Assembly (NCBI RefSeq): GCF_006345805.1
Contig: NC_042998.1
Span: 149,916,001-149,980,000, forward strand
DNA: 64,000 nt
DNA from: Octopus sinensis
Lineage: Eukaryota
Direction of reading: 5' to 3'
Positions within the stretch are counted from its first letter, which is position 1. Each line of letters begins with the position of its first letter. The notes below the pieces were generated by a model. That model made no database searches. It was not told the DNA's origin and saw only the letters and a list, made by a program, of their open reading frames with translations. Shown here one piece after another: positions 8,355 to 59,680 of this stretch. A program made the translations under genes and the position numbers.

Positions 8355-9026
<672 letters not shown>

Positions 9027-10306
9027 CTGTATGTATGTATGTATGTATGTATGTATGTATGTAGTATGTATGTATGTATGTATGTATGTATGTATGTATT
9101 TATGTATGTATGTATTAGATTAATCGAGAAATCGGAACCGATTCGGGATAACTATATTTTTATGAATTTCTGTTCGCTTGCTCGTTTCGACACGGGATGT
9201 AATAACATAAGTGAAAATATTTTATGTGGTTAGACGATTTAGCGTCTATTTTTCAGCTTAAAGACAAGGAAATATTTTTCTTTTTGCCCTTATTTATAAT
9301 TGTATTTATAATTTCGACCTTAAAAGGTATTTTTCATATGCTGGCCACTGATAAAATACACCTATGCTATTAAACAACTGTGGTAGTGTTCGTTTTTCAT
9401 TTTTCTTCTTTCTTTTGCAGTAGGGTCTCTTTTATGTAATGGCAGTTTCTAAGGAATAACTTTAGTTAACATAGTTTATCCAAGCAATTACCGAAAGAAA
9501 ACTCCCTCAACTGGTGTATAAAATTCAATAACGAAAAATCATAGTAGATCACTCCAGTAAAATCGATCAACTGAAATTTTGGAAAATGCAATGTTAGTGG
9601 AGGTCTGGTCTTTACAGACAGCTGGTGAGTACAATAAGCTTGTTTCGGCCCTATTAGACATCTTCAATATGGCATTGTCATATGAGAATAATAAGCTTAT
9701 CTGAGGAAGTTAAATAAACCCAAATCATCTATATTACTTTGCACAGATCCACTCTGAAAGGCACGTTTTAAATCTCCAGAATTTCTATTAAATTACTTGA
9801 TATTTTTAGATTTTCACCCACCTCTTGAAGAAGGTTTCGCTCACTATTTACATGGGTAATTTCTGTTAATCGAACTTTTACTCCTCCCTATATCTACATG
9901 CCTGACACCAATATCTCTTAGTCTTTTTTGTGCGTAGTACAGTGGCATTCGCATCCCCACCGCCATCTTGTTCATACGATCTTGTAGTCGTTATATTTAT
10001 AAAATGTTAACGTTGTGTGTTTATGTGTTTATATTATTTACGTTTATTATGCTTGTGTATGTATATATCTGTGTGTCTGCTTATATTATGTAGGTGTGTG
10101 TGTGTGTTATTTGCGCATATAATATGTATGTACTTCACATGATAGTCACTTCATATATATATATATATATATATAAAACACTCCTCATCGTGTTGCAATG
10201 ATAATGCTGGTGATGATGAAGATGATGGTAAGGTGGAGGGGGGATTACTACGAGTATGGTGGTAGTAGTGGTGTACGGTGAGAAGGACGATGAACTATGA
10301 GGTAGC

Positions 10307-13975: not shown

Positions 13976-14251
13976 TATTACCACAGTGGTGTTCCAGCAT
14001 GGCTGCAGCTGTATAGTTGACATGTATAAAGGATAACCGAACTGAACATATATATATACATAGATACTAAGCAATAAAGGGTTTAGCAACGAATTGCCTT
14101 ACCACATACCGAATTTAGAAATAGCAGTCAAAGAGTTATAGCTATTTCTCTACTAAAAAGGGAGATCTCAGTAAAAACAGCAATTGGAAGGCAGACACAA
14201 ACAGGTAAGAGAGAATGAATTGACGGCAATCTATCATACAATTTTAAGTTA

Positions 14252-14351
14252 TCTACGGACGTACGTTTCGAAATCAAGTTTTTAGGAAAGCATAAGAATT
14301 AAATATTAAATAATTCTATCTCACCAAAACTTCTTTTCTCTTCAGCGTAGA
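14252..14351 (-). ncRNA. Type I hammerhead ribozyme (copy 1)
   Basis: Minus: tctacg-CTGAAGA-gaaa..[extended stem II]..tttc-GAAAC-gtac-GTC^cgtaga. Stem I 6 bp, GUC cleavage triplet. Confidence 0.85.
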
Positions 14352-14838
14352 AACTATAATCATAAATGATTATATATGAATTTTGAGATACTAGAAGGCA
14401 CCAACTCAACTCAGTATCAGAGCGAGCTAGAATCCGCAACTAGTATCCCAAAATTCAATGTGTGAATGAAAAGATTGTGTCACCAGCCCCTTCCCACCGC
14501 GTGTAGCCAAAACAAGCTGCTGTGTCATCTACTGAGATAAAATATGGTTATCCGTAATAATGAAGGGTGAAATTAATTAATTTGGAATAATTATCAATTA
14601 CACCAAGTAGTCTTCGGCATGTAAAAGCCTCATTCGAGGAAAATTTAAGTAATACTAAGCAATAAAGGTTTAGCAACGAATTGCCTTACCACATACCGAA
14701 TTTAGAAATAGCAGTCAAAGAGTTATAGCTATTTCTTCTACTAAAAAGGGAGATCTCAGTAAAAACAGCAATTGGAAGGCAGACACAAACAGGTAAGAGA
14801 GAATGAATTGACGGCAATCTATCATACATTTTAAGTTA

Positions 14839-14938
14839 TCTACGGACGTACGTTTCGAAATCAAGTTTTTAGGAAAGCATAAGAATTAAATATTAAATAA
14901 TTCTATCTCACCAAAACTTCTTTTCTCTTCAGCGTAGA
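14839..14938 (-). ncRNA. Type I hammerhead ribozyme (copy 2)
   Basis: Same fold, 587 nt from copy 1. Confidence 0.85.
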
Positions 14939-15231
14939 ATACTATAATCATAAATGATTATATATTGAATTTTGAGATACTAGAAGGCACCAACTCAACT
15001 CAGTATCAGAGCGAGCTAGAATCCGCAACTAGTATCCCCAAATTCAATGTGTGAATGAAAAGATTGTGTCACCAGCCCCTTCCCACCCGCGTGTAGCCAA
15101 AACAAGCTGCTGTGGTCATCTACTGAGATAAAATATGGTTATCCGTAATAATGAAGGGTGAAATTAATTAATTTGGAATAATTATCAATTACACATTCAC
15201 CCTTCATTATATACATAGATATATATACATA

Positions 15232-15286
<55 letters not shown>

Positions 15287-15288
<2 letters not shown>

Positions 15289-15699
15289 CGCAGGAGTGGC
15301 TGTGTGGTAAGTAGCTTGCTAACCAACCACATGGTTCTGGGTTCAATCCCACTGCGTGGCATCTTGGGCAAGTGTCTTCTGCTATAGCCCCGGGCCGACT
15401 AATGCCTGTGGATTTGGTAGACGGAAACTGAAAGAAGCCTGTCGTATATATGTATATATATATGTATATATATTGTGTGTGTGTGTTTGTGTGTCTGTGT
15501 TTGTCCCCCTGTGGTTGTCCCCACCAACCGATGCTGGTGTGTGTTTACGTCCCCGTCACTTAGCGGCTCGGCAAAAGAGACCGATAGAATAAGTACTGGG
15601 CTTACAAAGAATAAGTCCCGGGGTCGATTTGCTCGACTAAAGGCGGTGCTCCAGCATGGCCACAGTCAAATGACTGAAACAAGTAAAAGAGGAAAAGAG

Positions 15700-15700
<1 letters not shown>
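15287..15700 (+). mobile_element. Full-length bipartite SINE family 2 (tRNA-like head + internal (TA)(TG) microsatellite + 3' module)
   Basis: ggcgcaggagTGGCTGTGTGGtaag (A box), GGGTTCAATCCC (B box), ttgggcaagtgtcttct; tail cagcatggccacagtcaaatgactgaaacaagtaaaagag. More than 10 related copies in the window. Confidence 0.9.
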
Positions 15701-15753
<53 letters not shown>

Positions 15754-15754
15754 C

Positions 15755-15833
<79 letters not shown>

Positions 15834-16675
15834 ATTCGGTGTACTCAATTAAAACGATATTAGATCTAAGTAGCCATCTATGTGTCATACTTAACTTATA
15901 CACACCGTTCAAATGAATGATACTCTAAATTTTGTTTGATACGAAATTACTTCATTGTAATTCTGCGTTAAAGTACAGTATGTCGCAGGGAGAATATCGT
16001 CCCAATATTGACTCATGAGAACAATAGACAGGCTTCGACCCTTTTTGACCTTGTCAATGATGTTCTCTCACGACTCACATGCCTAAACGAAATGCGTCGT
16101 TCCGTGGTATAGACAATTGTAAATAATATATTCACTGATATGGCGGAAAGCCTGTTACCCTGAATAAAATCTTCGAATACGCAATGAAAACGGTAACTCA
16201 CTTTTTAAATGTGTGAGTTCGAGCACCGATCCACACTCAGTATCTGTTATTTTTTACGTGCAGTTCCTTTCAGTTTATATCTAAGAGTCATGAAATAATA
16301 AATAAGCAAATAAATAAATAGATAAATAGATAATTGTACGAGCGGACAAGAAAATAAACATCGTCCCTAGGCATCCCTTAATCCAAGAGCTGCAGAAAAT
16401 AGATGTCTTTGGTGAGTACTGAGATACTTAGAGCGATTCTGTCCAGAGGGAAAATATAAGAAGACTAAAATAAGCTGTAGAATTTCAGAAACGAACTTTT
16501 CACTCCCACATACAAACACATAGAGACACAGTAGGATGCACATATGCATATATTTGTAAATGTACATGTATATATGTATATGCATATATGTATATGCATG
16601 TGTATATGTTTCTGTGTGTGTCATGTAATATATATACCGTCACACGTAAACATACAGTCATGGATTTATTCAAGC

Positions 16676-27739: not shown

Positions 27740-29256
27740 TATATATATATATCGGGTACATAACCACAACACTTTCCTGTTTGTTAATTATGCATTAAAA
27801 ACAAAGAAGTATAACCACTCTTTGTAATACAGTCGGTTGAATAAAATAAGCAAGAAACCATACGTTGTCAGTACAAGATTTTATTGAAAAGTCGACAAAA
27901 TATTGTAATAATTGTGGAATCTATATAAATGGTAAAATACCAACCGAAACTGGTGAATAAATTATAAAACCAGCGCTGGTGATTTTGTCAAGTCAAACGA
28001 TATTCTGATGAGCTTAAAGACCTACTGCAAAGCGCAGAAATAAAGTTCCATTGTTATCATAATTACATTCTCATATTGAGGCTAGGACGGTCTTGAAACA
28101 TTAAGGGTTCCAAACTAAATATAAGGAGAAATAACGAAATACGAATGTCCCTGAAATGAAAAAAAAAAAAAAGAACACTGAACAAACTCCAACACTGCCA
28201 TGTCTTTAATAGGACACGTTTGAAAGAAAAGCTGTTACTTATCCACTAAGACACACATACACGTACACACACATAAATACATATATTCGTAAACATACAA
28301 GCATACACATAACTACATGTACACACGTAAATGATCGAGACACATTATTATGATTTGTTACAGCACATTTCCTCGCCGCCGCTACTTTGTCAACTATTTT
28401 CTACTCTTCTCTCCCTCGCATCATTTGAAACAGAAAATCGTTAATTCGTTCACACGGTTAGACTCGCTAAATATGCAATGTTGTCACAAATTGAAGTTTT
28501 AATTAAGCAATTGCCTTCTCGTTTCATCACTGCAACATGTCACCGATTGCGAATCTTAGAAGCGTGAACACATTGGTGATATATATATATATATAATATA
28601 TATATATAATATATATATATATATAATATATATATACACATATATATATGTATGTATATATATATATCTATATATATATACACACACATATATATATATG
28701 TATATATATATATATACATATGCACAGACACACACCCAAGCATGCATGTATCCAGTATGTATATGCGCATGTGTGTATATATGTGTGTATACCTATATAC
28801 ATATACGTATATACATATGTATATGTGCCTGTGCATGTATGTAGTATGTATTTGTATATATGCATGTATGTTCGCACATACATCTATGTATAAATGGTTG
28901 GATGCATGCATCCAGCACGTTTGCATGCATGCGTATAGGCCTTATGCATATACGCATGCTGGTGTGCGTATGTGTGTACGTATGTTTGTATGTGTGTGCG
29001 TGTGTATGCGTGTGGGGGGGGGGAGTGCACATTGATCAACTTGTTAATGGTTGGGTGAAAGTCAATGACATACAACGTCTTCGTAAATTCAGATCTGAAT
29101 CAGACAGAAATCGTTAAGCAGATGGTACTTAGAACCATTGAGAAAATCTCGTTAGGAAGATATTTCCCAATTCACAACAGACCTTTCTACATTCACTTTT
29201 GTTCTTTCCCCCTTCTCCTCCGCCTCCTCCTCCTCCTCCTCCTCCTCCTTCTTCTT

Positions 29257-31892: not shown

Positions 31893-32047
31893 TACCAATT
31901 AAGGACTGAACACGAAAAAGTGGACAGTCAACATGCTAGATATAGACGTCAAATCGCCATTCTCCACAAAAAGTCTATGTTCTCAGATCAAACTCAACAC
32001 AAAACCAAAACAATAAACAAGTGAAAAATATACGAAATAAATATTAC

Positions 32048-32113
32048 CCATGTACTAAATTCAGTTTCGGCTGTTATTTTCCGCAAGGAAAAGTGCAGCC
32101 ATCATCAGCATGG
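32048..32113 (-). ncRNA. Type I hammerhead ribozyme (inverted copy)
   Basis: Reverse complement of 32510-32575. Confidence 0.85.
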
Positions 32114-32509
32114 TCCCATATAAAATGTAATTTGCTGTACTAAATGCCAACACGATACCGAAATATCGCGTGCATGGAGTACGACTGTCCACTTTTTCGT
32201 GTTCAGTCCTTAATTGGTATATATAAATATTTTAATCTTCGGATTCTTTCTTTAATATGCTAGACCACTGGTTCTAATTGATAAATATCAATTTTTACTC
32301 TAAATTTAATGTTATATAAATATTTGTTCTCTAACCAATAAATTAACTGCTGCCAACTATTAGCTGCAGGCTAGTTTTCTCGGGTCTCATCGCGCCAAAA
32401 TTAGAGACATTTGAAATATATATTTCAAATGTAATAGGCCGTACTCCATGCACGCGATATTTCGGTATCGTGTTGGCATTTAGTACAGCAAATTACATTT
32501 TATATGGGA

Positions 32510-32575
32510 CCATGCTGATGATGGCTGCACTTTTCCTTGCGGAAAATAACAGCCGAAACTGAATTTAGTACATGG
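32510..32575 (+). ncRNA. Type I hammerhead ribozyme
   Basis: ccatg-CTGATGA-t-ggctg..ttttcc-ttgc-ggaaaa..cagcc-GAAA-ctga-at-ttag-TA^catgg. GUA triplet. Confidence 0.88.
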
Positions 32576-32822
32576 GTAAATATTTATTTCGTATATTTTT
32601 CACTTGTTTATTGTTTTGGTTTTGTGTGAGTTTGATCTGAGAACATAGACTTTTTGTGGAGAATGGCGATTTGACGTCTATATCTAGCATGTTGACTGTC
32701 CACTTTTTCGTGTTCAGTCCTTAATTGGTATATATAAATATTTTAATCTTCGGATTCTTTCTTTAATATGCTAGACCACTGGTTCTAATTGATAAATATC
32801 AATTTTTACCCTAAATTTAATG

Positions 32823-32858
<36 letters not shown>

Positions 32859-44710: not shown

Positions 44711-44779
44711 ATATATATATATATATTATATATATATATATATATTATATATATTATATATATATATATATATAAATCA

Positions 44780-45485
44780 ATAAATAGTGGGGTTGTGTTG
44801 ACCGCACGTGGAAAAATGATAGGCAAGGAGAAATTATAAAAGGCAGAATGCTAATTGAAGGTAAATTTTAATGAAAATGGGTGTATGGAAAATTTTTAAA
44901 AATTAAAAAAAAAATATATATATATATTAATTCAAACCGGTTTTCGTTGTAATGCGACTTTTCAAGAATTGTAAGGTGAAAAGAAATTTCTTTTATACTT
45001 GAGGAGGGAGGAAAAAAGAAAATTACATTGTTTTTGCAAAAAAATAATAAACATACACAAAAATTAAAAAATAGGTACACCGATACATTGTAAAGTCTTT
45101 GTGTATCTCGAGTACAATGATAGTTCTTGAAAAATTACCTTGGAGGATTGAGATCCATGTGATTAAATCCATGTGGTGTTTAATTTAGGATGTTTGTTAA
45201 ATGAATGTCAAAACAGGAAATGGGGTAGGAGTTATCCAGTTCCTGTGAGTAAGGGGAGACAACTCTGTGGGTTTTATGCTCTTCAATTGGGGTTATCAAT
45301 TTTTTGTAAGATAGGATGTTAATAAACCTTAAATTATAAAATCATTTTAGCTTCATTTGTACTATCTTTTTTTATATAATTGTTTGCTAACTTAACATTC
45401 AGATTTTAACACTTTATTTATATTGTTTTGTAATCATATAAATTTACATAAACCAATTTATAATTTCATTTCAGATTGTTGTGTC

Positions 45486-45531
<46 letters not shown>

Positions 45532-45535
45532 TTAA

Positions 45536-45566
<31 letters not shown>

Positions 45567-45606
45567 AAGAAGAGAAGAAGAAGAAGAGGAAGAAGAAGAA
45601 GAGAAG

Positions 45607-45639
<33 letters not shown>

Positions 45640-46360
45640 AGAAGAAGAAGAAGAAGAAGAAGAAGAAGAAGAAGAAGAAGAAATAAAGAATATAAGTTTT
45701 AGCTTGAAGTGATGACTGCATGCTATCCTTATATATTTGTATTAGTCCATCCATGAAGAATGAGGTAGAAAAAAGAAGTATGATTAACGTGGAGATTGCA
45801 TATTAAGATGCGTTTTGAATTTTTCAATAACATTATTCTCCTTGTTAATTCTTTCTTGTGTGGTGATTCCGTCTTTACATTGGTAGAAGGGGAATATGTA
45901 AAATTTGGGATTTTTGTCTTTAGCGCATGAGTCTATGTGGCTACTTAGTGGAATTTGACGGTATTCTCGGTGATTTATTTGCTCTTTGTGGACCGCTACT
46001 CTTTTACGCAAAGGGAGGCTCGTTTGTCCAACATAATTATGTTGACAACCGGCGCATGTGAGGACGTAGATAAGGTTCTCGGAGGAACAGGAGAAGTTGG
46101 TCTTGATTTTAAACTTAGTTCCTTGTTTGAAGATAAATTCAGAGCCTTCAAGTAGGAAGGGGCAGGTGCCACAGTTTGGGCGTGCACATTTTTTAGCTGA
46201 TGGGGGTGAATGTGGTGTGTGAAGTTTGGCATTTGTCAAGAGTTTTTTCAAAGATTTATGTTGCCTTTTACATTTGAGGATTTTGTGTGTATTGATAATG
46301 TTTTTCATTTTTGGGTCTGTTGACAGTAGAGTGAGGTTTTGTATGATTGTGGTGTATTGT
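44780..46360 (-). mobile_element. Penelope-like element 3' fragment with GIY-YIG endonuclease ORF (45784-46308)
   Basis: CARPNCGTC..FSCSSENLIYVLTCAGCQHNYVGQTSLPLRKRVAVH..HIDSC: LIY..YVG GIY-YIG motif with PLE-type Cys/His residues. Degenerate HHR-like motif downstream at 44929-44970 (-). Left boundary uncertain. Confidence 0.85.
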
Positions 46361-53415: not shown

Positions 53416-55014
53416 CAGTGGGAGGAAATAAATATTCGTAAATGTCAAAATTCTTTATTTATTTAATTTCTAATGAACATAAATGGGATATACCAATACT
53501 ATATTTGCATACACATGCATAAACTAAGAATATACAAAAGAAACTAATAAATTATAGTAACTAAGGAATTTATATACAATCATAAATATTTAGGGGTGAA
53601 AAAATTATTCGTACAGAATAAATTTATGATTTTCTATGCCACAAAATACTGTTAAAATAATTTTTTACTAGAACTTTCTCGCTCGTTCCAATAATCTTAT
53701 CAGTTGTCATTTTTAAGTGTCAAAACGCTAGCTTCTTCATTCAGCACTGAGACAACATAAAGTAGTATCATAATAATGGCGAAAAGTAAAGAACTCACAA
53801 ATACAGTGAAAGACTTCATTATTGAACAGTGGAAAGCAGGTAAAAGTTACAGGAAAATATCAGACACCTTTTGTATTCCATTTTCTACCATATCTTCATT
53901 TATTGAAAGATATAAAAAGTCGGGAACTGTTGAAAACAGAATAAGATCCAGTGCACCATGCAAGATTTCCTCTAGATCTTTAAGAAAAATGAAGTAAGGA
54001 ATCGAAAAAAAAACGCAATGATCACTAGAAAGGAGTTGCAAGAAGATTTATTAGCTTCAGGGAATAGTGTTACACTACGGACAATCAGCAATGAACTTCA
54101 TAGGAATGAACTGAAGTTACGCTCTCCTAGAAAAACTCTGCTGTTGACTAGAAGGCATAGAGATGCCCATTTAAAATTTGTTTATGAACATAAAGATAAA
54201 CGTGATACATTCTGGGAAAATGTTCTATGGACAGACTAGTCGAAAATTGAATTGTTTGGACGAAATTCGCGTAGACATGTTTGGAGGAAAGATGGTACCG
54301 CCTATTCGCCGAAAAACACAATTCCTACCATAAAGTTTGGAGGTGGCAACATCATGGTGTGGGAGTTTTTTCTCTGCAAATGGTACTGGCAATTTACATG
54401 TGATAGATGGTAGAATGAATGCAGAGATGTACCAAAATATTTTGAACAATAATTTATGGGACTCTGTAGAAAAGCTCCAGTTTTGTGAAGGGTGGGTTTT
54501 ACAACGGGATAACGACCCTAAGCACACAGCGAAGTCTACCAAAAAATGGATTGTCGATCACTATATAAAATTATTAGAATGGCCATGCCAGTCACCTGAC
54601 TTGAACTCCATTGAAAATTCGTGGCGTTATTTGAAAATTAAAATTCATTCAACGTGCATTCAAGATTTGAAGAAAATTTGTCAAGAAGAATGGGAAAAAA
54701 TGTCTAAAGAAACATGCGAGCCATTGATTAAGAACTACAAGAAGAGATTGGTTGCAGTGGAACTGAATAATGGTTATGCTACGAAGTATTAAATCAGAAT
54801 TATCAGTCATTTATGCTCTGTACGAATACCTTTTTCACCCCTAAATATTTATAATTGTATATAAATTCCTTAGTAACTATAATTTATTAGTTTCTTTTGC
54901 ATATTCTTAGTTGATGCATGTGTATGCAAATATAGTATTGGTATATCCCATTTATGTTCATTAGAAATTAGATAAAGAATTTTGACATTTACGAATATTT
55001 ATTTCCTCCCACTG
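53416..55014 (+). mobile_element. Full-length Tc1-family DNA transposon (DD34E), ~200-bp TIRs, TA target
   Basis: TA^cagtgggaggaaataaatattcgtaaatgtc ... gacatttacgaatatttatttcctcccactg^TA. Long TIRs with internal repeated aaa.tattcgta sites (IR/DR type). Confidence 0.95.
53776..54792 (+). pseudogene. Tc1 transposase pseudogene
   Basis: MAKSKELT.. HTH region; WTD*SK, QRDNDPKH-(34 aa)-SPDLNSIENSW, GYATKY end. In-frame stops and frameshifts. Confidence 0.92.
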
Positions 55015-55039
55015 TATATATATATATTAATTATATATA

Positions 55040-58000
55040 AACTTAGATAGACTTAGATATGTTTCGACCAAAGATTGGTCCAGGCCATGTCTAACTTAAT
55101 AGCACCACCTGATAGGATTATCTAAATCCTGTTTAAGTCAAGTTTTGTTTATGGTCCATTCAATTAGTGAGTTTTTGTTGGGTGAGTTGTATCCAATTAT
55201 GGGTGGCTTATCTGGTATTCCTTGAAGGAATCTATCCAGACTCCGTTTAAAGTTGATGGGATCCTTTTCCTCTTTGATCTCTTTCGGGACAATGTTAAAT
55301 AGGGCAGGGCCTGTTAAGGAAAAGAAATTATGTTGCAGTGTACATATATGCTGTGATCCTGAATTGGGCAGGGGACGTATGGCCTGTGGTCCCAGTCGTG
55401 GATGAACGTTGAAGCTAATGTTCAGGTCGCTTGGGCAAAGTTGGCGGTATATTCTCCACATCGTACAAATGATGTACCGCTCACGGTGGCGCTGGAGAGA
55501 GAGTAGAGATTCAAGGCTTTAAGGTGGTCCCAATAATCGAGAGCAGCCATGCCTTCAATTCGTTTTGTGAGTGCCCTCTGAATTGATTCAATCCTCGAGA
55601 TGTTTTGTCTTGTATGGGGAGACCACAGTGGGCAGCAGTATTCGAGGTGTGGCCGTACAAAGGAGGAGAAAAGTGGTATGATGACACCTTGTTCTCTGGA
55701 CCGGAAGGTTCTTAAGATCCAGGAACTCATCCTACGAGCTATATCGACCATATTGTTGAAGTGGGCATTCCAACTGAGATTGTCATCAACAATTACGTCC
55801 AGGTCTCTGATATTGTTAGAGGCTGTGAGCGGTTCCCCTGAAGGAAGAGAGTATGGCTGTTTTATTGTGGACTTTCTCCCAAAATGCATCAGCTCAAATT
55901 TTCCCTCGTTCAGTTGCATTTTGTTTGTCTGCCCATTGACTCACAGCATGTAGATCAGACTGGAGTTGAGTTCGGTCTGCTTCTTCATTGATGATTTGCT
56001 GGAGCTTAGTGTCATCAGCAAATATTTTCACTTTTCAGGAATGTACGACACTGGAAAGGTCGTTTATATAAATTATAAAGAGGAGCGGGGTCAAAACATT
56101 CCTCTGGGGGACACCGCTGGTGACTTTTGCTGGGCTTGAGTGGACTCCCTCGACTACATGTTGTGTTCTATTCGCCAGGAAATACTTGATCCAGTGTAGA
56201 AGCTTTCCACGGATTCCAACATTTGCCAACTTTGAGAGTAGGATATTATGGCCAACCCTGTCGAACGCTTTACTGAAGTCAAGATATATGACATCAGAGT
56301 GCGAACCTGTTCCCAAGGCTTTAAGTATATCTTCAATGTGGTGTAAGAGCTGTGTTAGACAGTCCCTGCCACAGCGAAAGCCATGCTGATTTGCATTTAG
56401 GAGTTTGTGGGTCTCCAGGAAGTCAGCTATCCTTGATCTTAACACTCTTTCAAACACTTTAATGATGTGGGATGTGAGTGAGATTGGGCGATAGTTGACT
56501 GCGAAATCCGGGATGACAGACTGGGATAGAAGCTGTTTCAGTATATAACCTGAGTCTAACGAATTTCTCCAGAGGTTGGTCAGAGGGACTGCAAGTTGGT
56601 GTCTACATTTCTTCAGGAGACTAGCGGGGAATCTATCAGGGCCTACAGCAGAATAGTATTTGACTTCATTTATTGCTGCTATGATGTCAGAGGCAGTGAA
56701 TGTTATGTCTGAGATTTTATGTTGGGTATCAACTTCATTCGTTTCTCTTACGTCAATATCAGTGGGAACACTAAAGACAGAGCAGTATTGTTTCTGCAGT
56801 ATTTCTGCCATTTCTTTAGCATCGTGTTGTGGAATGCCGTTATCATCAATCAATGGCCCAATGGGTGAGACAGTGGTTCTATGCTTATTTGCATAAGAAT
56901 AGAACACTTTTGGGATCTGTTTGATGTTTTTGATTACCCACTGTTCCTCCACAGCTCTTTGATTTTCAATGGAGGTTTTCATGTCTGTCTGCAGATGAAG
57001 ACTTTCTAACTCCAGCCTTTTCCTTGTTGTTGAATGTGGATGTTGTATGTGGGAATATTTTAATTGGTTGACTTTTTTATTGAGTCTTTTGATGCGCCTG
57101 ATGAGTGTTTTTTTTTCTTTTTAGGGAGCCGATTTCTGTTAGTGTTAGTGGATTTCGTAGGAGCGTGTTTTGAGCATGTATAGGTGACAATGTTCTCAAA
57201 GTGCAGCCATGCGGTCTCATTTGGGTGGAATTCAGAGTAAAAGACCAGTCGGTGAAAGACAGATCCTTTCTGATTGCTCCCCAGTCCGCTTTGTGGAAGT
57301 TTATGTTGTCAAATGAATGCTATGGAGTGGGATTGGTTGGTTTGGTTTTTATATGTCGGGAATTAAAATTGCAGAGTACCATGTCGTGGTCTGAGACGGC
57401 AGTTTTTTCAATTGAAATACTGTGAATAGAGCTAGAGTGATCCAAGATCGTTTTATTCTGTACTGTTGGTTCGAGCACTAGCTGAGTCAGGAAGAATTTA
57501 TCCATTAGATTAAAGAGGAATTCTGCTGCTGCTTTATCTGATGTAGAGCATTTGCCTAACTTCAGAGTATTTGTGGGCCAGTTTATATGAGGGAGGTTAA
57601 AATCACCCATCACTAGTATGTTTCCGGAGTTGTATTTTTGAAGGAAGGACTTGATTTTGTTAAGGCACTCTTCAAAGCACTTTAGAGGTGCTTGGGGAGG
57701 CCTGTAAAGACCAGCAATGATTATGTCTTTGGCTTTGTTGAACAGTGATATAGATTCACAATAGCCATTGGAAAATATGTTCTTGGCATCAAGTGAAAAG
57801 GAGTCCCACCCTTATTTCGGTCTGTGCGATCTGCACGAACGATGGTGAAATCTTTTATTTTCACCTCGGCATCCATATGTGTGTTGTTTAGGTGAGTTTC
57901 AGTAAGGATAAAGAAAGGGAAGCAATGTGTTATTTCGGCAAGCCAACTCTCTATATATGGGATCTTCCATTTTTGGGCAATGATTGATAGGTTGATGCTA

Positions 58001-58490: not shown

Positions 58491-58633
58491 ATTTATATAG
58501 AGGGCATTATACATACATGCCAGGAGGCATTATACATACATGCCAAACGCTAAGAGGGACAATCAGTCATTTCTACCAAAAATATTACTAATCCCACCGA
58601 TGCAATTTTTCAAAGTAAGACATTTAAAAATAT

Positions 58634-58681
58634 AGACCTGTATCACAGTGATTTCATACTTACGTAATCATCAGCAGGCCT
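58634..58681 (-). ncRNA. Type I hammerhead ribozyme (copy 1)
   Basis: Minus: aggcctg-CTGATGA-t-tac-gtaa-gta-t-GAAA-tcac-t-gtga-TA^caggtct. 7-bp stem I, AUA triplet. Confidence 0.82.
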
Positions 58682-59108
58682 GAATGTATTATAAATAAAC
58701 AACGACCCTGCCTCGCTTAAGCCGATCAGCTAACTGATCAACATCAACGAAGCACATGGTGAGTTTATATATATTACATCCGGGTAAATGGCAAACTTTT
58801 ACGAATTGCATTTCGGGAGAGGAAAAGTTTTTTCGGAATAAAAATTTAGCAATTAAGGACAACTACTAATAAGGAAAACTTAACAAGAAATTGTCAGGTA
58901 GATAGCGTAAAAACCTCATAAGAGAAAAAATTTCGAAAATAATTATTTCTTATTGAACATATTAATTTATATATAGAGGGCATTATACATACATGCCAGG
59001 AGGCATTATACATACATGCCAAACGCTAAGAGGGACAATCAGTCATTTCTACCAAAAATATTACTAATCCCACGAATGCAATTTTTCAAAGTAAGACATT
59101 TAAAAAAT

Positions 59109-59156
59109 AGACCTGTATCACAGTGATTTCATACTTACGTAATCATCAGCAGGCCT
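59109..59156 (-). ncRNA. Type I hammerhead ribozyme (copy 2)
   Basis: Identical motif 475 nt from copy 1. Confidence 0.82.
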
Positions 59157-59680
59157 GAATGTATTATAAATAAACAACGACCCTGCCTCGCTTAAGCCGA
59201 TCAGCTAACTGATCAACATCAACGAAGCACATGGGTGAGTTTATATATATTACATCCGGTAAATGCAAACTTTTACGAATTGCATTTCGGGAGAGGAAAA
59301 GTGTTTTCGAATAAAATTTAGCAATTAAGGACAACTACTTAATAAGGAAAACTTAACAAGAAATTGTCAGGTAGATAGCGTAAAAACCTCATAAGAGAAA
59401 AAATTTCGAAAATAATTATTTCTTATTGAACATATTAATTTATATATAGAGGGCATTATACATACATGCCAGGAGGCATTATACATACATGCCAAACGCT
59501 AAGAGGGACAATCAGTCATTTCTACCAAAAATATTACTAATCCTATATATATATATATATATATATTAATTCACAATAGTAAAATGACAATAAAAGAACG
59601 AGACCTCTATGTGATGAAAATAGAGGAATTTATATGTGTGTGTGTGTGTATACATATATACATATATTGTGTGTGGTGTA

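What the first reader, a model, noticed from the sequence alone, without database searches (positions are those of the whole stretch)
14064..15210. 587-nt HHR tandem with TSD: predicted unit-length (circular) RNA
Two canonical GUC-cleaving HHRs on the minus strand would cut between 14845/14844 and 14258/14257, releasing a 587-nt monomer. Stem II is unusually long (about 70 nt, with nested pairs aagtttt/aaaactt and agaatta/taattct), and stem III has a palindromic GTAC loop suited to dimeric folding. A ~14-bp TSD and a 16-bp inverted end indicate target-primed insertion. A ~1.9-mer fits rolling reverse transcription of a circle (inference). The unit is longer than the few-hundred-nt monomers I recall for animal retrozymes.
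Basis: partly seen in the sequence, partly recalled or inferred. Interest (0 to 1): 0.82.

Follow-up and report, generated by a model that had tools for sequence, protein, structure and literature searches.

The report
Self-cutting RNA repeat, Penelope-style insertions
This is one copy of a young, protein-free repeat of about 590 bases with a predicted self-cutting RNA motif in each unit; its genomic copies end at two fixed points and repeat one sequence variant per insertion, so it is likely a new member of the known animal 'retrozymes', likely copied round a single RNA circle by a borrowed Penelope-type enzyme.

Summary
Observation confirmed: two identical type I hammerhead motifs on the minus strand, 587 nt apart (family median 593), a 14-nt target duplication and a 15-nt inverted end. 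It is one copy of an abundant young family (at least 200 matches; roughly 1,500 insertions, extrapolated) in (TA)n. Copies are not randomly permuted: RNA-sense 3' ends sit at site A (189-202 nt after the cut) or site B (285-303). Of 45 resolved two-armed insertions, 42 have A at one end and B at the other, none A/A or B/B, matching the two-start-site 'tail' of Penelope-like elements (PLEs). The window's inverted end is a minimal B arm. Arrays of 1.3-14 units each repeat one haplotype, both arms included (0.6% within, 2.5% between), so one monomer was copied repeatedly. Three helices around the A-B segment covary across three lineages. Cleavage, circular RNA and the partner PLE are not shown; no read data were obtained. 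Length is unremarkable (published 51-972 bp). Verdict: new member of the metazoan non-LTR retrozymes, with good genomic evidence for PLE mobilisation. The scan noted this same anatomy before on other DNA.

The parts
14053..14066 (+). Target-site duplication, left copy (last 3 nt overlap the element end)
   Evidence: sequence
14064..15194 (-). Long arm, 1131 nt, 1.9 units: monomer positions 242-587, 1-587, 1-193; its 3' end at 14064 is site A
14250..14352 (-). Type I hammerhead motif, downstream copy; predicted cut 14258/14257; 69-nt stem II
14258..14844 (-). Predicted self-excised monomer, 587 nt (family median 593); no ORF (longest stop-free stretch 56 codons); fold z -7.7
14545..14725 (-). 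Conserved module with three covarying helices; site A (14652) lies inside helix 1's loop, site B (about 14542-14560) just 3' of helix 3; inferred RT recognition element
14837..14939 (-). Type I hammerhead motif, upstream copy; predicted cut 14845/14844
15196..15210 (+). Short inverted arm = monomer 274-288, ending at site B
15208..15221 (+). Target-site duplication, right copy (first 3 nt overlap the inverted arm), followed by (TA)n

Best explanation
The element is one two-armed insertion of a young non-coding hammerhead repeat family in TA microsatellites, likely a non-autonomous passenger of a Penelope-like retrotransposon, whose units are predicted to self-cleave and likely circularise. Shown: tandem units with an intact hammerhead motif, fixed 3' ends at two sites about 100 nt apart, one on each side of two-armed insertions, one haplotype per insertion, and a covarying three-helix module around those sites. 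Inferred: a tandem copy is transcribed from the minus strand, the hammerheads (probably as dimers, given the weak palindromic stem III) cut out a ~590-nt monomer, a host ligase closes it, a PLE protein binds the module, nicks both strands of (TA)n with a 9-15-nt stagger, and primes reverse transcription at site A from one strand and site B from the other on the same RNA; each arm runs round the circle for a variable distance and the two cDNA ends are joined, often through 1-8 nt of microhomology. Here the A arm ran 1.9 turns and the B arm 15 nt.
For: Ends: 42 of 45 resolved two-armed insertions are A+B, 3 have one displaced end, 0 are A/A or B/B; 27 of 30 one-armed ones end at A (two samples of 38, the second position-ordered). 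(TA)n at the 3' flank in 70 of 76. PMC11167929 shows in vitro that a PLE nicks and extends both strands in AT-rich DNA and starts at two internal sites that define the genomic tail. An autonomous PLE in this genome shows the same rule: 4 of 4 loci with both orientations have one end of each type. Haplotypes: 0.63% substitutions within insertions, 0.66% between arms, 2.5% between insertions; a minor allele is shared by 77% of same-insertion pieces, 79% across arms, 10% elsewhere (299 pieces, 75 insertions); 12 of 13 arrays with 3 or more full units carry 2-17 fixed non-majority substitutions. Junction spacer has one length in 173 of 176. Module: 97.9% of cells paired, 4 pairs with two-sided changes, slid controls 30-48%. 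Sister family f2 (565 nt) keeps hammerhead position and the A/B ends.
Against: No expression, cleavage or circle data. In the PLE assay the unprocessed RNA was the dominant substrate and ribozyme mutants still inserted; 8 of 9 predicted Xenopus retrozyme dimers did not cleave in vitro. No sequence homology to any of four PLE lineages sampled. 5' ends are not enriched at the cut site. Some variants are shared by only part of an array (e.g. 3 of 10 adjacent units in L054, 4 of 7 in L055), which allows local exchange or assembly effects; assembly polishing could also homogenise arrays. The tail is about 100 nt against 30-40 nt reported for PLEs. In family f2 several copies end at B with no A arm detected. 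Only 4 covarying pairs over three related lineages.
Confidence: 0.62

Rival explanations
1. Same PLE-driven insertion, but the template is the uncut linear multimeric transcript; the hammerhead is dispensable for mobility and homogeneous arrays come from homogeneous source arrays or later local expansion of 1.x-mers.
For: Unprocessed RNA was the dominant substrate for the anole PLE. Exact junctions are expected without ligation. Some haplotypes recur in several arrays, e.g. L047 and L050. Partly shared variants inside long arrays.
Against: Linear copying can only shorten arrays and keeps new mutations in single units, yet 12 of 13 long arrays have substitutions fixed in all units and both arms share them; L249 has about 3.5 units in each arm with intact TA-primed ends.
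Confidence: 0.2
2. The hammerheads cut out a linear monomer and the reverse transcriptase jumps repeatedly from its 5' end to its own 3' end, giving tandem copies with no covalent circle.
For: Would also give one haplotype per insertion.
Against: Junctions have one length in 173 of 176 cases, with no added or lost bases as template jumps usually leave (my knowledge of R2/group II RTs); arms do not stop preferentially at the cut site.
Confidence: 0.1
3. Two-armed insertions arise by fold-back of one cDNA rather than by priming from both target strands.
For: In 11 of 17 short two-armed insertions both arms stop within 14 nt of the same template position, two junctions at palindromes (no formal null computed).
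Against: Many arms differ widely in length and stop position (e.g. 286 vs 3938 nt); an A-primed cDNA cannot be folded back to give the extra 100 nt of a B arm; both strands are extended by a PLE in vitro.
Confidence: 0.06
4. A satellite spread by unequal exchange with a passenger ribozyme motif, or an assembly duplication at this locus.
For: The two units differ almost only by single-base indels; no reads checked.
Against: Dispersed short arrays on many contigs, fixed 3' ends, variable 5' ends, inversions and target duplications.
Confidence: 0.02

Closest known systems
Metazoan non-LTR retrozymes (Cervera and de la Pena 2020, PMC7229834, parts 2-4 of 6 read; Li, Clavereau and Pollet 2026, bioRxiv 10.64898/2026.07.22.740005, parts 1-3 of 5 read)
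   Same: Non-coding tandem units, one type I hammerhead each, AT-rich, stable fold, TSD longer than 4 bp, weak stem III suited to dimers, PLEs in the same genome, rolling reverse transcription of a circle already proposed.
   Different: Longer than the 170-400 nt of the 2020 paper but inside the 51-972 bp of the 2026 survey; 61-83-nt stem II; circRNA not shown here; insertion ends, two-arm rule and a conserved cis module are not described in the parts read (PMC7761336 passage: animal retrozymes show no conserved motif pointing to the partner).
EN+ Penelope-like elements: Poseidon of Anolis (Frangieh et al. 2024, PMC11167929, parts 1-2 of 4 read); PLE insertion anatomy (Craig et al., 10.1101/2021.04.23.441226, passages read)
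   Same: Partial tandems, 5' truncation, inverted 5' arm, tail on one end only, AT-rich or microsatellite targets, two internal RT start sites downstream of a hammerhead.
   Different: No ORF; tail about 100 nt instead of 30-40; full three-helix hammerhead instead of a minimal one; up to 14 units; strict A/B complementarity, whereas the in vitro study saw no start-site difference between strands.
Non-autonomous Chlamys elements such as MRC1 (same Craig et al. passages)
   Same: [quoted passage not shown]
   Different: Those clades lack hammerheads and resemble their partner at the 3' end; no such homology was found here.

Membership tests
Metazoan non-LTR retrozyme | Tandem units each with a complete type I hammerhead | tested here: met
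   (107 of 113 cores intact)
Metazoan non-LTR retrozyme | No protein coding, GC below 50% | tested here: met
   longest stop-free stretch 56 codons; GC 0.345 for 14001-16000
Metazoan non-LTR retrozyme | TSD longer than 4 bp when present | tested here: met
   9-15 nt in 7 of 76, shuffles mean 0.7
Metazoan non-LTR retrozyme | Stable, highly self-paired monomer | tested here: met
   -167 kcal/mol, z -7.72, 0 of 100 shuffles; 66% paired as a circle
Metazoan non-LTR retrozyme | Self-cleavage of the transcript | not testable with these tools
   bench assay needed; stem I variants keep pairing by wobble and one stem II pair changes on both sides in an older subfamily
Metazoan non-LTR retrozyme | Accumulation of unit-length circular RNA | not tested
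   no sequencing reads were obtained; remains open
Non-autonomous Penelope-like element | Partial tandem, variable 5' truncation, inverted 5' arm | tested here: met
   46 of 76 insertions two-armed; 5' ends spread over the unit
Non-autonomous Penelope-like element | Two fixed internal 3' ends defining a tail present on one end only | tested here: met
   42 of 45 A+B, 0 A/A or B/B; tail about 100 nt rather than 30-40
Non-autonomous Penelope-like element | AT-rich or microsatellite target | tested here: met
   70 of 76
Non-autonomous Penelope-like element | Sequence homology to the pLTR of an autonomous PLE | tested here: inconclusive
   none with four lineages sampled out of an unknown number; short end-motif likeness not discriminating
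Plant-type LTR retrozyme | Type III hammerhead in LTRs flanking a unique core, 4-bp TSD | tested here: not met
   type I topology, pure tandem, longer TSD
tRNA-derived SINE | tRNA-like head with B box | tested here: not met
   no tRNA, no B box, internal T5 runs

The most novel reading that the evidence does not exclude
A PLE protein dimer primes from both target strands at two fixed sites on one covalently closed RNA and rolls both copies round it, and the covarying three-helix module spanning sites A and B is the cis element that hands retrozymes to PLE machinery: the recognition signal said to be missing from animal retrozymes, and a strict one-site-per-strand rule not seen in vitro.
Probability: 0.4. 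Interest if true: 0.68.

Novelty: new member of a known kind. Interest (0 to 1): 0.45.

Why it matters
That animal retrozymes are copied from circles by PLE enzymes is a published hypothesis resting on co-occurrence and pLTR likeness. This family supplies genomic footprints that test it: two mapped start sites, a one-site-per-end rule, one haplotype per insertion across both arms, and a conserved structured module to mutate. It defines a concrete in vitro experiment (circle vs linear template, module mutants) and bears on how PLE tails and inverted arms form. The element class itself is known, so the value is mechanistic, not categorical.

Tried and rejected
Rfam: no hit at gathering score in the window, only microsatellite-driven weak hits at E<=10. 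No tRNA, no B box. Apparent pile-up of 5' ends at the cleavage site was a BLAST boundary effect: after extension only 3 of about 120 ends lie within 5 nt of it, so no genomic trace of in vivo cleavage. Partner search: a GIY-YIG fragment in the window and a PF01541 search gave four PLE lineages (782-, 781-, 775-aa ORFs and a partial one, 40-58% identical); BLASTN and a module profile hit them only where a retrozyme copy is nested nearby (L080, L153, L160). End-motif comparison: B ends of all three retrozyme lineages score p 0.003-0.03 against the B end of the 782-aa lineage, but one scores higher against another lineage's A end, in 49 uncorrected comparisons: a lead only. A third lineage gave short inverted copies and no linked ORF. 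RNAalifold on 40 gapped rows recovered only helix 1; helices 2 and 3 were drawn by eye and then counted, which favours them. Rows dropped: L064 and L069 (duplicates of L063, L031), L266 (end in an N gap); L112 samples etc. of family f2 were chosen by a query ending at B and are biased. Expression and circularity could not be examined. Literature searches found no paper on cephalopod retrozymes or on this two-arm rule; subscription journals are not covered and the supplements of the 2026 preprint were not seen.

Full report
Observation. The minus strand of 14064-15194 holds 1.9 head-to-tail units. A scan for type I hammerheads finds two identical motifs with cores at 14932 and 14345, 69-nt stem II, a six-base palindromic stem III and GUC, predicting cuts at 14845/14844 and 14258/14257, 587 nt apart. 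The two units differ by 7 one-base indels and 1 substitution. The family's cut-to-cut median is 593 (n=95), so 587 is likely slightly short through assembly indels. The monomer has no ORF, folds far better than shuffles (z -7.72), and has no tRNA head or B box. Rfam misses it. A 14-nt target duplication (8 nt beyond overlaps) and an exact 15-nt inverted end (15196-15210) are present. Below, positions count from the cut in RNA sense.

Family. The unit has at least 200 matches among 40 scored of 1172 candidates in the 2.7-Gb genome. A pattern from the conserved module has 4572 exact matches, control 0; 61 of the first 100 rows are this family, in 38 insertions over 65.6 Mb, which extrapolates to roughly 1,500 insertions. 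I analysed two samples of 38: best-scoring loci including the window, two duplicates dropped, and all position-ordered ones from that stretch. The second sample only sees copies that contain positions 233-281.

Ends. 3' ends are fixed at site A (189-202, mostly 193) or site B (285-303); 5' ends are spread over the unit. 46 of 76 insertions have two back-to-back arms. One has an end in an N gap; of the other 45, 42 have A at one end and B at the other, 3 have one displaced end (267, 246, 152) facing the other class, and none is A/A or B/B. Either arm can be the longer. Of 30 one-armed copies 27 end at A, 2 at B, 1 elsewhere. The window's inverted end is positions 274-288, a minimal B arm. 70 of 76 have (TA)n at the 3' flank; 7 of 76 show informative 9-15-nt duplications, against 0.7 in shuffled pairings. 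Arm junctions show overlaps of 1-8 nt or short inserts. This is the PLE anatomy described by Craig et al. (partial tandem, inverted 5' copy, tail on one end; passages) and explained in vitro by Frangieh et al.: both strands nicked and extended in AT-rich DNA, two internal start sites defining the tail. An autonomous PLE of this genome, with a truncated copy in the window, obeys the same rule in 4 of 4 loci with both orientations, with a tail of about 50 nt.

One monomer per insertion. Arrays run from under one to 14 units. Over 299 pieces from 75 insertions, substitutions are 0.63% within an insertion, 0.66% between its two arms and 2.5% between insertions; a minor allele recurs in 77% of same-insertion pieces, 79% across arms and 10% elsewhere; 12 of 13 arrays with three or more full units carry 2-17 substitutions fixed throughout. 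The junction spacer has one length in 173 of 176 cases. So each insertion is repeated copying of one sequence with precise joints. A circle explains this most simply. Against: a few variants are shared by part of an array, haplotypes recur between some arrays, assembly may homogenise units, and in the PLE assay uncut RNA was the main substrate. 5' ends are not enriched at the cut. In 11 of 17 short two-armed copies both arms stop within 14 nt of the same position, which fits a shared template molecule but also fold-back.

Conserved module. A 565-nt sister family aligns along the whole unit, with a short stem II and the same A/B ends; a third lineage shares the module. On 18 sequences from these lineages three helices pair in 97.9% of cells, with 4 two-sided changes (slid controls 30-48%; cell shuffles 0/500, pair count 42/500). 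Helix 1 encloses site A, helix 3 lies just before site B. Helix 1 came from RNAalifold, helices 2 and 3 by eye, and the lineages are related, so support is moderate. That the module is the RT-binding element is inference.

Ribozyme. 107 of 113 cores are intact; core positions vary less than the unit average (0.6% vs 1.4%, non-independent). The common stem III variant keeps a wobble palindrome (30 of 124 junctions; cofold -5.4 vs -6.4), stem I variants keep pairing, stem II varies at its apex (61-83 nt) and shows one two-sided change in an older subfamily. Activity is untested; 8 of 9 predicted frog dimers failed to cleave in one study.

Partner. Four PLE lineages sampled share no sequence with the unit. 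End-motif likeness to the 782-aa lineage is weak and not discriminating. The partner is open. No read data were obtained, so expression, strand, cleavage and circularity in vivo are open.

Comparison. The element meets every testable feature of metazoan non-LTR retrozymes (PMC7229834, parts 2-4 read). Its length is above the 170-400 nt given there but inside the 51-972 bp of the 2026 survey, which also argues that these are non-autonomous PLEs. Rolling reverse transcription of the circle by a PLE is the published hypothesis. What I did not find in print is the mapped two-site, one-per-end rule, per-insertion haplotypes and a conserved cis module; PMC7761336 states that no such motif was known (passage). 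The scan's earlier notes report the same anatomy for several 310-600-nt families in this and other genomes; a look-up by sequence found none matching this unit. They agree with a reading I had recorded first and are not independent evidence.

Verdict. Real feature; new member of a known kind; identity as a PLE-mobilised retrozyme about 0.9, the full circle-plus-twin-priming mechanism about 0.6; interest 0.45 because it makes an open mechanism directly testable.

Noticed in passing
window 58494-59543: Second tandem, 473-nt unit, 2.2 copies at 98%, between TA repeats; by eye a type I hammerhead with an AUA site on the minus strand near 58650-58690 and 59120-59165.
   Followed up: partly
window 31895-32830: Two-armed inverted element between TA repeats with identical type I hammerheads at + 32515 and - 32108 (33-nt stem II, GUA site): a third retrozyme-like family.
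   Followed up: partly
window about 44775-46360, minus strand: 5'-truncated Penelope-like element: GIY-YIG domain (Pfam PF01541, E 5e-6) with a cysteine motif before it, complete 3' tail, in TA repeats. Full copies are 4.6 kb with overlapping 499- and 782-aa frames, two 3' ends about 50 nt apart used one per end. Clade not tested.
   Followed up: yes
window 27997-28125, plus strand: Weak hammerhead-like match with 83-nt stem II and poor stem III; may be chance.
   Followed up: no
L136, L117, L237, L160: Sister lineages f2 (565 nt, short stem II, GUU site), f2b and f3 share the module and the A/B ends; 4572 exact module-pattern matches for f1+f2, control 0.
   Followed up: partly
first 65 Mb of G000:C1 (L168-L271): Only about 9 of 38 position-ordered insertions hold two tandem hammerheads; about 18 are short and hold none, so most copies could not release a monomer.
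   Followed up: partly
   Followed up: no
window 15288-15445 and 15530-15690: Two SINE-like repeats next to the insertion (resemblance to octopus SINEs recalled, not tested; earlier notes also call this genome an octopus).
   Followed up: no
window 54334-57811 and 8534-9151: Fragments resembling a Tc1-type transposase and LINE reverse transcriptase/endonuclease in the ORF list (names recalled, not scanned).
   Followed up: no
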